From the human T2T-CHM13v2.0 reference genome, Homo sapiens: DNA of 64,000 bases. This document shows positions 12,436-22,141 of this stretch, piece by piece; position 1 is the stretch's first letter, and the number at the start of each line of letters is the position of its first letter. A model generated the notes under the pieces. The model was given only the letters and a program-made list of their open reading frames with translations, had not been told where the DNA came from and made no database searches. Location: NCBI RefSeq assembly GCF_009914755.1, contig NC_060925.1. The stretch is one strand, 5' to 3'. The translations under genes and the position numbers were made by a program.

Positions 12436-12466
12436 ATGCTGCTCTGGACACTACTTCTGGTCATTG
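12436..12466 (+). pseudogene. FCRLS: FCRLS leader exon S1 (MLLWTLLLVI)
   Basis: ATG plus 10 codons and 1 nt, then donor gtgggt. MLLW start is typical of FCRL2-5 signal peptides. Confidence 0.85.
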
Positions 12467-13119
12467 GTGGGTAGAATGCTAGAGCAGGACTGAGGTGGGC
12501 AGAATCACCTGTCCCTGGGCATCCCGGAAGCTATTCTTGAGCACATTCTTTCTGCTGGGATGAGTACGGTGGGCTTCAGCTCCTAACTCCGTAACAACAG
12601 ATACTATGCAAATGGGTATTGAGCAGAGCAGGGTTCCTAGGAAAAACAAAAAACTATGAATCTCTTTACTAAATATTCATTACTTCTCATTTATTTAACA
12701 TCCATTTCTGCTTTGATCTCTAGGAAAACTGGAAAATTTATTAAAAGGACATCAAAGAAATTTTCTGTCAGGGTGAATTCTAGTTCCAGCCCACATAAAT
12801 CCTACTCTGCCCTAACCCCCACTTCCACTCTAAGCTACTACATATCTGGCTGAACTCTTACTTCCCTAGACTTAGATTTCAGAGAGGCTTCAAATCTTGC
12901 TAACCGTAGAGGAGATCATGGCTTCTGCTGATAAATATGTCTCTCTTATATGGACTCAAACACAATGTTAGGCCTAGAATAGGAATGGAAGGATAAATGG
13001 TATCAGTGAAATATGAGAGGACACTTCCATTTCCTACATGGGCCTTCTGGGCTTCATGTTGCCCCCCAGGCAGGCAATGTATCTCAGACAAAATAGGATA
13101 CTTTAAAAAGAGAAGATAA

Positions 13120-13347
13120 GGCCAGGCGCAGTGGCTCACGATTGTAATCCCAGCACTTTGGGAGGCCAAGGCGGGCGGATCATAAGGTCAAGAGATTGAG
13201 ACCATCCTGGCCAACATGGTGAAGCCTTATCTCTACTAAAAATAGAAAAATTAACCTGGCATGGTGGCGCGTACCTGTAGTCCCAGCTACACTAGAGGCT
13301 GAGGCAGGAGAATCGCTTGAACCCAGGAGGCAGAGGTTGCAGTGGGC
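13120..13347 (+). mobile_element. Alu (AluSc-like), 3'-truncated, in intron 1
   Basis: Alu from ggccaggcgc to gcagtgggc, lacking the last ~55 nt and the poly-A tail. Confidence 0.9.
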
Positions 13348-13601
13348 TCCGTAGGAGCGTTGTTTGTTATTGATGGAAGGAAGAAAGGAAAGAAGGAAGA
13401 AGGAGGAAGAGAAGGAGGGGAAAAGAATAGAAGAAATGAGGGAGGTAGGATATAAGGGCAGAAAAAGTGGAGGTGGGGGGAAGAAACAGAAAGAAAGTTG
13501 GGGAAAGATAATTGTTGGAAAGTTCTCAAAGGGCTACAACTTTTTAAAGAGAGTAAGAATCCTGGTCCTGTGGTAACCTCTCTGACTCTGTTCCCTCATA
13601 G

Positions 13602-13622
13602 CTCCTGTCACCTTCCAGTCAG
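13602..13622 (+). pseudogene. FCRLS: FCRLS 21-nt leader mini-exon S2 (APVTFQS)
   Basis: ttccctcatag|CTCCTGTCACCTTCCAGTCAG|gtgagt. Exactly 21 nt and phase 1-1, the hallmark second leader exon of FCR/FCRL genes. Confidence 0.9.
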
Positions 13623-18099: not shown

Positions 18100-19740
18100 G
18101 TACATTTTTTTCTTCAATCCATTATTGTGGAGAACTGCATTAATAGATGTCCTAATACGGAACAATCCTTGAATTTCCCCTATAAACCCTTCTTAGTCAT
18201 TGCAGGTAGTAACTACATAACACTTGCTAATATTTTATTTTAAATTTTAGCATTTTGTTTATAAGTGAGTTTTCTTTTCTAAATTCTACTCATCTGGTTT
18301 AGGTTTCAGGGATAGGTTAGCCTCATAAGAATAATTTCAGAAGTTTCCATAGTTTCTGTGCTCTGCAACAATTGAAAACAATATTGGAATTATCTGCTAC
18401 TTAGTCTTTGGAACTAGCCCAAAAACTTTCTGAGCCTGGTGTATTTTTCTCTCCATTGTCAGATCTTTTTTTATTCACTTTTTTCAAATTTTTCACCCTT
18501 TTAAAACACAATTTGAATTCTTTCACTCAAAAAGTTGGGCATTTTCTCTAGATTTTCAAATTTGTCACATAATGTTGACCATAGTATTATTTTCTTCTTC
18601 TTTTCCTCCTCCTCCTCCTCCTTCTTTTGACGGAGTCGCTCTGTAACCCAGGCTGGAGTGCAGTGGCACAATCTCGGCTCACTACAACCTCCACCTCCTG
18701 GGTTCAAGCAGTTCTCCTACCTCAGCCTCCCAAGTAGCTGGGACTACAGGCATGCACCACCACACCCAGCTAATTTTTGTATTTTTAGTAGAGATGGGGT
18801 TTCACCATGTTGGTCAGGCTGGTCTGGAACTCCTGAACTCAAGTGATCCACCCGCCTCGGCCTCCAAAAGTGCTAAGATTACAGGCGTGAGCCACCACAC
18901 CCAGTCAACCACAGTATTTTCATCTAATTTTTTAAAGCCCTCTAGTTTGTGATTGTGTCCTTCTCATTTCTAACTTGTTTGTGTGGTCTCTTTTCTCTTA
19001 CCAGATTTGCCAGAGGTTCAGCTGTTACATTGCTCTTTTCAAATACCTAGATTTATTTTTATTGTACAAATAGAAAATTGTTTTATCATTCAAATATATT
19101 TGGTTTTGGTTTTCTAATTCATTTATTTCTCCTTTACTTTCAGTATATTCTTCCTTCTTTTTATTTTAAGTTTATTTTATGTTGCCTTTTCTTTAATTTC
19201 TTACCTGAAATGCTTATTCATTTTTTATCTTTGTTTTCTAATGAATACATTTAAAACTGTATGTTTTCCTCTAAGTACACTTTCACATTATCCTAAAAGT
19301 TTTAATGAATATTTTCATTTGTTTAATATCTAAAGTGTGTGTATATGTTTTCATTTGTTTTTCAACCTGGCAAATTATTATAACTATTATAAAATAATTT
19401 CTTATGAATAGATTTTTTTCATCCTTTATTTTCTTAGTTTCTCATAAAGTTCTTTGTTATCCTTGTATTTAACATTTTTTCAAAGTGGCCTGTATAAGTT
19501 TTACTTTTTGGGAACTTAGTAAGAATTTCTTTATGGTCTAACATATAGTCAATTTATATAAATATTCTATACAGAAAGTGAAAAGAATATGAATTTTCTG
19601 TTAGAGGTACACAGTATATATTTTTCTATAAAATTAAGCCAGTTGCTTGATTTATTCATTCTCTGTAGAGTCTTACATATGTCCTGTTTAATCTATTAAT
19701 TTTTGAGAATAATATTCCCATTATTGTCTATAATTCTGTT
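18100..19740 (-). mobile_element. Very old antisense L1 (L1ME-like) fragments with an AluS at about 18600-18905
   Basis: T-rich antisense L1 ORF2-like sequence. Embedded antisense Alu with (TCC)n-containing tail. L1 boundaries are approximate. Confidence 0.6.
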
Positions 19741-20612
19741 AAGTCTACCTTTTCCCAGGGGCTTTGCTGTGATCATAGTAATTGTGTGAGATGGGGCATT
19801 TTGGTTGCAAATGACAGAAGTCCCATACAAACTGGCTTGAGGGAAAAAAAAAAGCAAAGTTGGTGAGAGGGGTCAAGAATGGACAAGGCTTTGTGTGCAA
19901 GTGGATGCAAGGGCTCTGTCTTTGTTGTCCACCTTCTTTCCTCTGCTTTCTGCCATTAGCTTCATTCTTAGACAGGCAGAGCTGGCCACTGATAACTCTA
20001 GGCTTACATCTCTCCTTTCTGCTAGAGATCCTAGAGAAAAGAGTTTCTTTCCAATGACTGTAGCTTAAAACCATAAAAACAAGACAGGCAGATGTTAGAG
20101 ATTAACCAGTCCGTGTAAATGTGTCCATCCAACTCCTACCACCCCCTTCCCCAGAGAAAATGGGCCTGCCATTGGTGAAGTCATCAGTGTCATACAGAGC
20201 AGTTTTTAAAAGGAAAATGCATAACTCAGTTGACCTTAGGCCTTTCCTACTCTAGGCCTCAGTCTCTATCTCTAGGAAAGATCTAATTCTAGCCTTCTCT
20301 GTTTCTAAGCTTTTTTGAGCTTGTGAGAACCAAACCATAAGTCTCTATGTCCCCACGTCCCTTTATCGTCAGAGTGGAAGCAAGGGCTCCTTTTTAGGTA
20401 TCATTGAGTGGGGGGCATTGGTGGGGCGAGATGCTCGTAAAATGGTGATTGGGATAGGGCAGATCTGAAGCTCTGTACTTCCTTATTTTTGCAAGTACCC
20501 TAAGCCCACATCACACAACATCACCAACACCAACATCAAACAACCTCTCTTAACACTGGGAGCTGCTTTAAGAGTAAGTTCCTGAGTGTGCTCTTACCTC
20601 TTCTGTTTGCAG

Positions 20613-20933
20613 AGCCCCCGACCAAAGTCCGTTTGATTAATGGTCCTCACCACTGCAAAGGAAGAGTGGAAGTGGAACAGGAAGGTCACTGAGGTACCGT
20701 GTGTGATGACAGCTGGGACATGAAGGATGTGGCCGTGGTGTGCCAGGAGCTGGGCTGTTGAGCAGCCAAGCACACACCTGCTGGCATGTTGTATTCAAGA
20801 GTGGCAGAAGAGGCCCAACCTGTGTTCATTCAGGTTGCCCTGTGCCATAGGACAGAAGAGGCACTGGCTGAATGTGAGCAAATTGAGACCTTTGACTGTG
20901 GGCATGAGGAGGATGCAGGAGCAGTGTGTGGTG
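20613..20933 (+). pseudogene. FCRLS: Group-B SRCR domain exon with two TGA stops
   Basis: ttgcag| then [54 protein letters not shown]...ALCHRTEEALAECEQIETFDCGHEEDAGAVC. 8 Cys. TGA at 20690 (Trp position) and 20759 (Gly position). The expected donor reads ttgggt. Confidence 0.95.
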
Positions 20934-22118
20934 TTGGGTAATGGCAGGGCTTGGGGAGTGGTATTTGTGGGCTAGCCCATCTCCAAGATCCTTCCTTGTG
21001 CTGCCACTTCCAATTCTCCTTACTACTCACCATTGCCCCCTCCTTCTTCAGAACCACTCAACCACTCTACGCAAAAATGTGCTCAATGCAACACCATTAC
21101 TTCACTTAAGCTGGTCCAGAGTTAAAGGGCTCTCCTATAATCTATGCTAATATTATTAGACTTTATCTGTCATCTCAAAAGACAAAACACTGGTATTTTT
21201 TGTGACTGTGGGTTGAGGCATAATGCTAGGAAAATAATTATAAAATCATAGAATTATACAATTTGAGTGATTTTCATCAAGATCACACTGCTTATATTGT
21301 TCTATAATCTCTTCAGCTTTTCTCAGCTCTCTCCCCTAAACAACTCTGCTCATCAAAATGAATCTCTGGATTCTAATAGGGACTAGGAGGAGTTGGAAGA
21401 ACACAGAGTCTGTCAAGAAAGCCAGGCCACAAGCTGTAAAAGACAGAGCTACCTAAGGGTAGAGGTAAAATGAAGAAATTCTGGGACCACTGCAGGTTCC
21501 AAAGCCTCCATAGAGCCTTGACTGGAGTGGAAGCCAGTAAGATTGACTGCTCTCTCTAGCTGCAGCCCCAGCCCCAGGCTCCCATGGAGCCCTCCAGTCC
21601 CATGGGCCAGAGCTAATGAGTGGCCTTTCAGAGGTCCTTGGTGAGAAGAAAAGTCTTTAAAACACTAGGCCAATGCTGAGCTTTAGGACCTAGTAAGAAC
21701 CTGTGACTTGTTCAAGGAAATTGACTCAGTACTGGGCACTAGCAAGGATCCAAGATTTGGAGTCAACTGTTCAGAGCTAGAGGTTTACCTCCCTGACTAG
21801 CCAGCCATGTAGGTAGCAAACTTCTCCAAAGCTTATTATCTTTGTCAGAAAAGTGGGATACCATCTAGCCAAATTTCCTCACAGAGTAGGACAAGATCAA
21901 GCAAAACACACTCATAAAGACCTCTTGTGGAGCAAAGTCTGGGAAGAAGTCCCTGGGCTGCTTTGGGATGGTCCGGATGAGGGGATCCAGTCTGAGGCTT
22001 GGGGCCAGGATCCATCCTTAATCTGGGCCTCTCTTCTCCTGGGAGATCTTATAAGCTTGCCTGAACAGTACTTCACTGGGTCTCCCCACCTTACCACCTC
22101 TCCCCCTTTTCTCTATAG

Positions 22119-22141
22119 CATTCTTGCTTAATACTCTTTGA
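22119..22141 (+). pseudogene. FCRLS: Probable short terminal coding exon of FCRLS ((V)LLNTL*)
   Basis: Strong pyrimidine tract ...ctctatagcat|TC TTG CTT AAT ACT CTT TGA. Resembles the mouse Fcrls C-terminus as I recall it (VLPSTF*). Possible poly(A) signals ATTAAA at 22521 and AATAAA at 22885. Confidence 0.55.

What the first reader, a model, noticed from the sequence alone, without database searches (positions are those of the whole stretch)
12436..22141. Fossil of the Ig+SRCR hybrid receptor FCRLS, recoverable exon by exon
Seen: S1 (31 nt coding), S2 (21 nt), Ig exons of 288 and 279 nt, an SRCR exon and a probable terminal exon, all phase 1 and collinear. No transmembrane exon was found. 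Visible lesions are few: TAG at 16353, TGA at 20690 and 20759, and a damaged donor/acceptor pair for the last intron. There are no frameshifts. Established: Fcrls is a secreted-type four-Ig plus SRCR protein and a widely used mouse microglia marker, usually described as having no human counterpart. As I recall, its loss in catarrhines has been reported, so the loss itself may not be new. Inference: the low lesion load indicates a fairly recent primate inactivation of a unitary gene, which automated annotation may label only as an FCRL4-like fragment.
Basis: partly seen in the sequence, partly recalled or inferred. Interest (0 to 1): 0.8.

Follow-up and report, generated by a model that had tools for sequence, protein, structure and literature searches.

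The report
Dead human copy of FCRLS
Between CD5L and KIRREL1 the human genome still holds six of the eight exons of FCRLS, the mouse microglia marker gene said to be missing in people, but the copy is broken, looks long dead and is not labelled as such in the gene catalogue.

Summary
S1 (31 nt), S2 (21 nt), two Ig exons (288 and 279 nt), one SRCR exon and a 23-nt terminal exon lie in order on the + strand. Spliced, they give 320 codons in frame with premature stops at exactly 16353, 20690 and 20759.

Eight Ig+SRCR proteins from rodents, colugo and galago align in order to the two Ig exons and the SRCR exon. A mouse Fcrls stop-codon motif hits the window once, at the proposed stop.

Three points need correcting:
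- The first two of the four Ig exons are absent.
- The last intron's donor reads TT, but its acceptor is intact.
- Three stops in 291 codons argue against recent inactivation: P is at most 0.5% at 1% neutral divergence.

One thing is new. The first retained Ig exon is 92.6% identical over 350 nt to the last Ig exon of FCRL4. The FCRL4 and FCRLS versions of this domain group by species in human and in squirrels, which points to gene conversion.

The lncRNA LOC105371458 reuses two FCRLS splice sites. Human loss of FCRLS is already in print; my searches did not find the remnant described.

The parts
12436..12466 (+). Exon S1: start codon and first half of the split signal peptide (31 nt), donor GT
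   Evidence: S1+S2 translate to a 17-residue leader that matches FCRLS leaders at 12-13 of 17, against 2-10 of 17 for 11 FCRL1/2/3/5 proteins.
13602..13622 (+). Exon S2: 21-nt second signal-peptide exon, the FCR/FCRL family hallmark, with AG and GT intact
   Evidence: The 21-bp second leader exon is stated as a family feature in PMC10003336 (passage).
13623..16149 (+). Interval where the first two Ig exons (Ig1, Ig2) of four-Ig FCRLS should lie; no recognisable exon is left
   Evidence: Of 8 orthologues, 0 give an Ig1 or Ig2 hit here at E <= 0.1. Profile search of 3367 six-frame pieces found nothing above noise. A 22-residue trace at 14701-14766 has E about 0.6 and is not significant.
16093..16442 (+). 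350-nt tract 92.6% identical to the last Ig (D4) exon of FCRL4: 57 nt of intron, the whole exon and 5 nt of the next intron. Probable gene-conversion tract.
   Evidence: Identity stops at both ends; the flanking 300 nt do not align.
16150..16437 (+). Ig exon a (288 nt), orthologous to FCRLS Ig3 (D4 type), with TAG at 16353-16355. RefSeq calls it LOC100996284, 'FCRL4 pseudogene'.
16853..17131 (+). Ig exon b (279 nt), orthologous to FCRLS Ig4 (D5 type), open frame. Its donor at 17131/17132 is used by lncRNA LOC105371458.
   Evidence: hub table for the lncRNA exon 17054-17131.
20613..20933 (+). SRCR exon (321 nt, all 8 cysteines kept), with TGA at 20690-20692 (conserved Trp position) and TGA at 20759-20761 (conserved Gly position). 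Its acceptor is used by the lncRNA.
   Evidence: hub table for the lncRNA exon 20613-20873.
20874..20875 (+). Cryptic GT donor inside the SRCR exon, used by the lncRNA in place of the dead natural donor
   Evidence: Hub table (lncRNA exon ends at 20873); sequence read.
20934..20935 (+). Natural donor of the last intron, reading TT instead of GT
   Evidence: The exon end is set by orthologue proteins that have one residue between the last Cys and the tail.
22119..22141 (+). Terminal exon: 7-residue tail and TGA stop, with acceptor AG intact
   Evidence: A mouse Fcrls stop-flank 15-mer hits only at 22139-22153 with 1 mismatch; chance expectation is 0.01.

Best explanation
The stretch 12436-22141 (+) is the human orthologue of FCRLS, the secreted Ig plus SRCR protein of other mammals. 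It survives as a unitary pseudogene. Six of the eight ancestral exons remain in order and in phase: two signal-peptide exons, Ig3, Ig4, SRCR and the short tail exon.

The gene cannot make the protein, for three reasons:
1. The exons for Ig1 and Ig2 are gone, most simply by deletion. This step is inferred.
2. Three nonsense codons interrupt Ig3 and the SRCR domain.
3. The donor of the last intron is TT.

The locus is still transcribed. The RefSeq lncRNA LOC105371458 joins the Ig4 donor to the SRCR acceptor, then leaves the SRCR exon from a cryptic donor 60 nt upstream of the dead one. That the dead donor caused this rerouting is inferred.

The Ig3 exon has exchanged sequence with the last Ig exon of FCRL4 by gene conversion, which is why the catalogue calls it an FCRL4 pseudogene.

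The lesion load fits tens of millions of years of neutral drift, not a recent loss.
For: Exon anatomy, frame and stops.

Domain calls.

Orthologue alignment: of the 120 proteins listed, 8 carry Ig plus SRCR Pfam domains. All 8 of 8 align in order to the three large exons: Ig3 58-75%, Ig4 60-74%, SRCR 66-76%. Gap-free identities are 64-81%, 65-77% and 74-80%.

Trees:
- Exon b lies inside the FCRLS Ig4 clade, 92/93, in a tree of 58 rows.
- Exon a lies inside a starred clade (100/99) of 8 FCRLS rows, FCRL4 D4 and a squirrel FCRL4-like D4, in a tree of 32 rows.
- The SRCR exon groups with the FCRLS SRCR domains at 76/67. An AU test rejects pairing it with human CD5L SRCR1 at p = 0.019.

Closest human paralogue: for the SRCR exon it is only 62% identical (CD5L SRCR1), and for exon b only 68%.

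Synteny: CD5L exons were found upstream on the opposite strand. KIRREL1 downstream comes from the hub table. This is the arrangement described in PMC7940838.

Stop codon: a mouse Fcrls stop-region 15-mer taken from PMC11236590 hits the window once, at 22139-22153.

Missing Ig1 and Ig2.

Timing.
Against: - The SRCR grouping with FCRLS is weakly supported (76/67). An AU test does not reject placing the human exon with CD5L SRCR1 plus the bovine CD5L-like repeats (p = 0.25).
- Exon a is closer to human FCRL4 (88% aa) than to any FCRLS orthologue (at most 81%). Its sequence, as opposed to its position, may therefore be FCRL4-derived. An AU test does not reject the human pair lying outside the FCRLS clade (p = 0.12).
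- No frameshift in 873 nt is fewer than I would expect after long neutral drift. That expectation rests on a recalled ratio of indels to substitutions, not on a computation.
- No genomic DNA from another primate was available, so the orthology of each lesion and the deletion of Ig1 and Ig2 are inferred from proteins of other orders.
Confidence: 0.92

Rival explanations
1. The exons are not one old gene. They are a patchwork of separate copies of pieces of neighbouring living genes: an FCRL4 exon, an FCRL D5 exon and CD5L SRCR1. On this view RefSeq's 'FCRL4 pseudogene' label is the right description.
For: Exon a is 88% (aa) and 92.6% (nt) identical to the FCRL4 D4 exon. CD5L SRCR1 is the nearest human relative of the SRCR exon.
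Against: - The FCRL4 similarity covers only 350 nt, and no other FCRL4 exon or flank is present.
- Exon b and the SRCR exon are only 68% and 62% identical to their nearest human paralogues, but 65-80% identical to FCRLS of other orders.
- The AU test rejects human SRCR plus human CD5L SRCR1 as a pair (p = 0.019).
- The pieces share strand, order and phase, have a signal peptide, and carry a stop codon that matches mouse Fcrls.
Confidence: 0.04
2. One reading: the gene was inactivated recently, within apes or Old World primates, so the fossil is young.
For: There is no frameshift in the three large exons. All structural cysteines are kept, and 9 of 10 splice sites are canonical. Exon b differs at only 2 of 30 sites invariant in the orthologues.
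Against: - P(3 or more stops) is 0.3-0.5% at 1% divergence, 1.8-3.2% at 2% and 5-8% at 3%.
- Two exons are lost outright.
- Human differs at 16 of 125 invariant sites, against 1-7 of about 130 in six of the eight living orthologues.
- Since its exchange with FCRL4, exon a has diverged by 19 of 288 nt, of which 13 are nonsynonymous.
- In my by-eye reading of the alignment, most of those nonsynonymous changes fall on the fossil side.
- No anthropoid Ig+SRCR protein appears among the 120 proteins listed.
- Matos et al. report absence throughout Haplorrhini.
Confidence: 0.07
3. The locus is not only a fossil. Its transcript LOC105371458 has taken on a function of its own as a non-coding RNA. This does not exclude the best explanation.
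For: A curated RefSeq lncRNA (NR_135760.1, hub table) is spliced from the Ig4 donor to the SRCR acceptor and on to new exons at 36741 and 39553. One paper lists the locus name (PMC9768786, search listing only).
Against: There are no data here on expression, conservation or phenotype. Many dead genes stay transcribed. The lncRNA's use of a cryptic donor looks like a by-product of the dead natural donor.
Confidence: 0.15

Closest known systems
Mammalian FCRLS (mouse Fcrls; Ig+SRCR proteins of galago, colugo and rodents, often annotated 'FCRL2-like' or 'FCRL3')
   Same: - Position between CD5L and KIRREL1, in the orientation of KIRREL1.
- Split leader with a 21-nt S2 exon.
- A D4-type then a D5-type Ig exon, then one group-B SRCR exon, then a 7-residue tail.
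- No transmembrane segment in the orthologue proteins.
- 64-81% identity per domain, and the stop codon matches the mouse stop.
   Different: The human copy lacks the first two Ig exons, has three nonsense codons and a TT donor, and encodes no protein.
Human FCRL4 (IgA receptor), last extracellular Ig domain (D4)
   Same: 88% aa and 92.6% nt identity to exon a over a 350-nt tract. The two are sisters in the tree at 100/97.
   Different: Nothing else of FCRL4 is here, and the similarity ends 57 nt upstream and 5 nt downstream of the exon. FCRL4 lies about 340 kb away on the other strand and has a transmembrane tail (recalled, not tested).
Human CD5L (AIM/Sp-alpha), SRCR domain 1
   Same: Nearest human relative of the SRCR exon (62%). 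It shares a starred clade with FCRLS SRCR domains (95/93), which fits the published idea that a CD5L-like gene donated the FCRLS SRCR domain (PMC7940838 Discussion).
   Different: It is less similar than the FCRLS orthologues (74-80%). The AU test rejects a human-human pairing (p = 0.019). CD5L has three SRCR domains and no Ig domain.
Transcribed unitary pseudogenes of primates in general
   Same: A single-copy gene is lost in one lineage, leaving exons with stops in the ancestral place, and is still transcribed as an annotated lncRNA.
   Different: Here one exon has also exchanged sequence with a living paralogue.

Membership tests
FCRLS orthologue | Lies between CD5L and KIRREL1, opposite in orientation to the FCRL1-5 cluster | tested here: met
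   CD5L SRCR exons found at C1:156970262-156973219 on the - strand, upstream of the window. FCRL paralogue exons are all on the - strand. KIRREL1 downstream on the + strand comes from the hub table only. The criterion is from PMC7940838.
FCRLS orthologue | Split signal peptide with a 21-nt second exon | tested here: met
   S1 is 31 nt and S2 is 21 nt, both with intact splice sites. The leader matches 4 FCRLS leaders at 12-13 of 17, against 2-10 of 17 for 11 other FCRL proteins.
FCRLS orthologue | Four Ig-like domains followed by one type-B SRCR domain in one reading frame | tested here: not met
   Only Ig3, Ig4 and SRCR are present; Ig1 and Ig2 have no exon. This is read as a lesion of the pseudogene and not as evidence against orthology. 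Published FCRLS exon counts also vary: rat 7, mouse 8, buffalo 10.
FCRLS orthologue | Domains cluster with FCRLS of other mammals and not with FCRL1-5 or CD5L | tested here: met
   Exon b: FCRLS clade 92/93. Exon a: starred clade with FCRLS, which also holds FCRL4 D4. SRCR: 76/67 with FCRLS, and pairing with CD5L SRCR1 is rejected at p = 0.019, but a looser CD5L grouping is not rejected at p = 0.25.
FCRLS orthologue | No transmembrane exon; short C-terminal tail exon | tested here: met
   A 7-residue tail exon ends at a TGA that matches the mouse Fcrls stop region. Orthologue tails are 7-8 residues in galago, guinea pig and cotton rat. I ran no transmembrane-exon search.
Unitary pseudogene | Disabling lesions, and no intact copy elsewhere in the genome | tested here: met
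   Three stops, a TT donor and two missing exons. Whole-genome searches with each large exon gave only the window itself above 88%, 68% and 62%.
FCRL4 pseudogene (the RefSeq label for 16150-16437) | Derived from FCRL4 as a gene copy or retrocopy | tested here: not met
   Only one exon plus 62 flanking bases resembles FCRL4. The exon sits in phase within a different gene's exon series.

The most novel reading that the evidence does not exclude
The last Ig exon of the IgA receptor FCRL4 and the third Ig exon of FCRLS are kept alike by repeated gene conversion. In humans the partner is a dead gene. Part of a working immune receptor is therefore shared with, and may have been copied from, a pseudogene, or the pseudogene exon was overwritten by FCRL4.

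The same species-wise pairing appears in squirrels, so the exchange would be recurrent across mammalian orders.
Probability: 0.55. Interest if true: 0.5.

Novelty: new member of a known kind. Interest (0 to 1): 0.36.

Why it matters
Fcrls is a standard mouse microglia marker and Cre driver. Papers state that it 'does not exist in humans' (PMC7940838 Introduction).

Showing that the human locus is a recognisable, transcribed wreck does four things:
- It explains the absence of a human counterpart.
- It corrects a catalogue label: the 'FCRL4 pseudogene' and the uncharacterised lncRNA are parts of one dead FCRLS.
- It gives concrete lesions that can be mapped on the primate tree to date the loss. 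The only published estimate comes from presence or absence of annotated genes.
- It suggests that the membrane-proximal domain of FCRL4 has a mixed ancestry, which would matter for evolutionary and structural readings of that IgA receptor.

None of this changes the basic picture that humans lack FCRLS.

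Tried and rejected
- Two of the three large protein searches failed to reach FCRLS. With the SRCR exon as query, the 120 listed hits were multi-SRCR proteins (DMBT1, SSC5D, CD163-like). This held both among longer proteins (416 of 479 candidates significant) and in the 264-840 residue class (2139 of 2266). 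Single-SRCR proteins were outranked. The third search, with exon b, found the orthologues.
- The top hit was a Bos indicus 'CD5L-like' protein of five near-identical SRCR repeats, 63% identical to the human exon. I considered it as a rival relative. It groups with CD5L SRCR1 (77/80) and not with the human exon.
- I searched for the missing Ig1 and Ig2 in three ways. Only a 22-residue trace at 14701-14766 turned up (E about 0.6). I rejected it as not significant.
- My first exon ends for S2, exon b, the SRCR exon and the tail exon were wrong by 1-9 bases. They were corrected. The joined translation is wrong at its last residues.
- Literature searches for a described human FCRLS remnant found none. 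Terms: FCRLS with pseudogene and primates; 'FCRLS pseudogene', 'FCRL4 pseudogene', FCRLSP and the two LOC names; FCRLS with pseudogene (25 papers, 3 opened); Fcrls with 'no human'.
- FCRL4 with 'gene conversion' gave only listings on other subjects.
- The two supplementary files of PMC7940838 list only FCRL2 for human and other anthropoids, and never use the word 'pseudogene'.
- Older subscription papers on FCRLS, which I recall as Davis 2007 and Fayngerts 2007, are not in the library and may mention a human remnant.
- I did not use structure prediction, the representative-protein search or the complex predictor. None would have changed the reading.

Full report
**What is there**

Window 12436-22141 (+) holds six exons in order, each with the phase-1 layout of the FCR/FCRL family:
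- S1, 12436-12466: 31 nt from an ATG.
- S2, 13602-13622: 21 nt.
- Ig exon a, 16150-16437: 288 nt.
- Ig exon b, 16853-17131: 279 nt.
- An SRCR exon, 20613-20933: 321 nt.
- A terminal exon, 22119-22141: 23 nt ending in TGA.

Joined, they give 963 nt, which is 320 codons plus the stop. My earlier one search had some exon ends wrong.

Nine of the ten splice sites are canonical. The donor of the last intron reads TT at 20934-20935.

Pfam finds Ig, Ig and SRCR in the three large exons (SRCR E = 1.8e-22). All eight SRCR cysteines and both Ig cysteine pairs are kept.

**Is it FCRLS?**

With exon b as query, 263 of 407 candidate proteins were significant and 120 were listed. Eight of the 120 carry both Ig and SRCR Pfam domains. 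They come from kangaroo rat, squirrel, gundi, guinea pig, porcupine, cotton rat, colugo and galago. The colugo and galago records appear among the FCRLS genes in the supplement of Matos et al. 2021.

All 8 of 8 align in order to the window:
- Their third Ig domain aligns to exon a.
- Their fourth Ig domain aligns to exon b.
- Their SRCR domain aligns to the SRCR exon.

Gap-free identities are 64-81%, 65-77% and 74-80%. The nearest human paralogues are:
- FCRL4 at 88% for exon a.
- An FCRL5-cluster exon at 68% for exon b.
- CD5L SRCR1 at 62% for the SRCR exon.

I built domain trees from 32 proteins that I picked out of the 120: all 8 Ig+SRCR proteins and 24 named FCRL1/2/3/5 proteins. I dropped domains scoring under 40 bits or covering fewer than 70 profile positions.
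- Exon b falls inside the FCRLS Ig4 clade, support 92/93, 58 rows.
- The SRCR exon groups with the FCRLS SRCR domains at 76/67. CD5L SRCR3 was never fetched, and SRCR2 was dropped as a long branch.
- An AU test rejects a human SRCR plus human CD5L SRCR1 pair (p = 0.019).
- It does not reject a looser grouping with CD5L SRCR1 and bovine repeats (p = 0.25).

Synteny fits. The CD5L exons lie upstream on the opposite strand. KIRREL1 lies downstream on the same strand according to the hub table. This is how Matos et al. describe FCRLS (Results read).

The tail exon is confirmed from an unexpected source. The guide RNAs and primers printed in a paper on an Fcrls-Cre mouse give the mouse stop-codon region. 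A 15-mer from it hits the window once, at 22139-22153, with one mismatch and 0.01 hits expected by chance.

By eye, the 23 coding bases of the tail exon match the mouse primer text without gaps. This comparison was by eye only.

**What is broken**

Besides the three stops and the TT donor, the first two of the four Ig exons are missing.
- None of the 8 orthologues gives a hit for those domains.
- Profiles built from them score no better than noise over 3367 six-frame pieces of the window. The best E-values are 0.57 and 0.3, both cross-hits to exon b.
- A permissive tblastn on the 2.5-kb interval 13623-16149 gives a best E of 0.19.

Ig3, Ig4 and SRCR are still 64-81% identical to other orders, so decay alone cannot have erased two exons. 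A deletion is the simplest reading, but it is inferred.

Because all the exons are phase 1, the deletion leaves the frame intact. A two-Ig form may once have been expressed, but that is speculation.

I could not confirm a damaged acceptor. A pyrimidine tract and AG precede 22119.

**How old is the loss?**

Of all point changes to the 291 sense codons, 3.1-3.9% create a stop. Three or more stops then have these probabilities:
- 0.3-0.5% at 1% neutral divergence.
- 1.8-3.2% at 2%.
- 5-8% at 3%.
- 44-59% at 9%.

The human sequence differs at 16 of 125 sites that are invariant in the 8 orthologues. Six of the living genes differ at 1-7 of about 130 such sites. Cotton rat (18 of 143) and colugo (20 of 145) are as high as human.

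From recalled figures, human-lineage divergence is roughly 0.6% since chimpanzee, 3% since macaque, 5-6% since New World monkeys and 9-10% since strepsirrhines. On those figures the loss is tens of millions of years old.
- This is compatible with the published 'absent in Haplorrhini'.
- It is not compatible with a recent event.
- The absence of any frameshift pulls the estimate down somewhat.
- I cannot date the loss without other primate genomes.

**The FCRL4 link**

Exon a and the last Ig exon of FCRL4 are 92.6% identical over 350 nt (16093-16442). The tract covers 57 nt of upstream intron and stops 5 nt into the downstream intron. The flanks beyond do not align. Within the exon, 19 of 288 bases differ: 13 nonsynonymous and 6 synonymous.

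In the tree the two are sisters (100/97) inside the FCRLS Ig3 clade (100/99), next to galago FCRLS (91/87).

A ground-squirrel protein annotated FCRL3 has its first two domains aligned to FCRL4 D3-D4 (305 bits). Its D4 pairs with squirrel FCRLS Ig3 (99/97). An AU test rejects pairing it with human FCRL4 D4 (p = 1.9e-6).

So the D4 exons group by species and not by gene. That is the signature of gene conversion, seen in two orders. The direction is open:
- The human pair lying outside the FCRLS clade is not rejected (p = 0.12).
- FCRL4 alone lying outside is marginally rejected (p = 0.045).

Caveats: I had one FCRL4 sequence per lineage, the squirrel gene model may be chimeric, and the two squirrel sequences come from different genera.

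**Transcription**

The RefSeq lncRNA LOC105371458 has exons at 17054-17131 and 20613-20873 (hub table). It therefore uses the Ig4 donor and the SRCR acceptor. It then leaves from a GT at 20874, 60 nt upstream of the dead donor, for exons at 36.7 and 39.6 kb. I infer that the dead donor is what rerouted the splicing.

**What is known**

Matos et al. 2021 (abstract, Results, Discussion and supplement searched) say that FCRLS 'does not exist in humans' and is absent in most primates. They discarded sequences with premature stops. They mention a search for remains without reporting any.

My searches found no paper describing the human remnant. Older subscription papers could not be searched.

**Verdict**

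This is a correct and careful observation of a unitary pseudogene whose loss is already known.

Noticed in passing
window 31793-31928 and 32253-32407 (+), with an Alu at about 31935-32240; weaker D4-like traces at 31158-31231: A second, more decayed D5-type FCRL Ig exon lies 10 kb downstream of the SRCR exon on the same strand. An Alu insertion splits it, and it carries one stop and a two-codon deletion. It is about 73-77% identical (nt) to the D5 exons of FCRL1/2/3/5 and 70-76% to exon b, with no clear nearest relative. The hub table does not list it. It may be the remnant of a further FCRL gene or of an old duplicate of the Ig3-Ig4 pair.
   Followed up: partly
window 13798-13941 (+), in the intron after S2: The first 48 residues of the porcupine (Erethizon) FCRLS gene model align here at 64.6% identity (E = 3e-8). 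Either that model starts in a mispredicted exon, or this is a conserved intronic element or alternative first exon shared by human and porcupine.
   Followed up: no
P0121 (Bos indicus 'CD5 antigen-like isoform X1', 564 aa): This protein is five tandem, nearly identical copies of an SRCR domain of the CD5L SRCR1 type. Each copy is about 63% identical to the human FCRLS SRCR exon, and they group with human CD5L SRCR1 (77/80). It looks like a bovine expansion or an assembly or model artefact.
   Followed up: partly
P0263 (Callospermophilus lateralis 'Fc receptor-like protein 3', 526 aa): The first two Ig domains align to human FCRL4 D3-D4 (305 bits) and are followed by two D5 domains like those of FCRL5/FCRL3. 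This is either a squirrel FCRL4 with extra domains or a chimeric gene model. Its D4 is nearly identical to the Ig3 of squirrel FCRLS.
   Followed up: partly
window 14701-14766 (+): A 22-residue stretch resembles the start of FCRLS Ig1 (9 of 22 identical with a 2-residue gap in the squirrel alignment; 8 of 22 in the two others). The same hit came from three orthologues, with E about 0.6-0.9 in a 2.5-kb search. It is not significant and could be chance or the last trace of the Ig1 exon.
   Followed up: partly
window 20936-20941 (+): If the SRCR exon is read through past its dead donor, the frame ends three codons after the last Cys, at TAA 20939-20941. The kangaroo-rat and squirrel protein models end in the same way, three codons after that Cys. 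Unspliced read-through may therefore be an old alternative ending of FCRLS.
   Followed up: no
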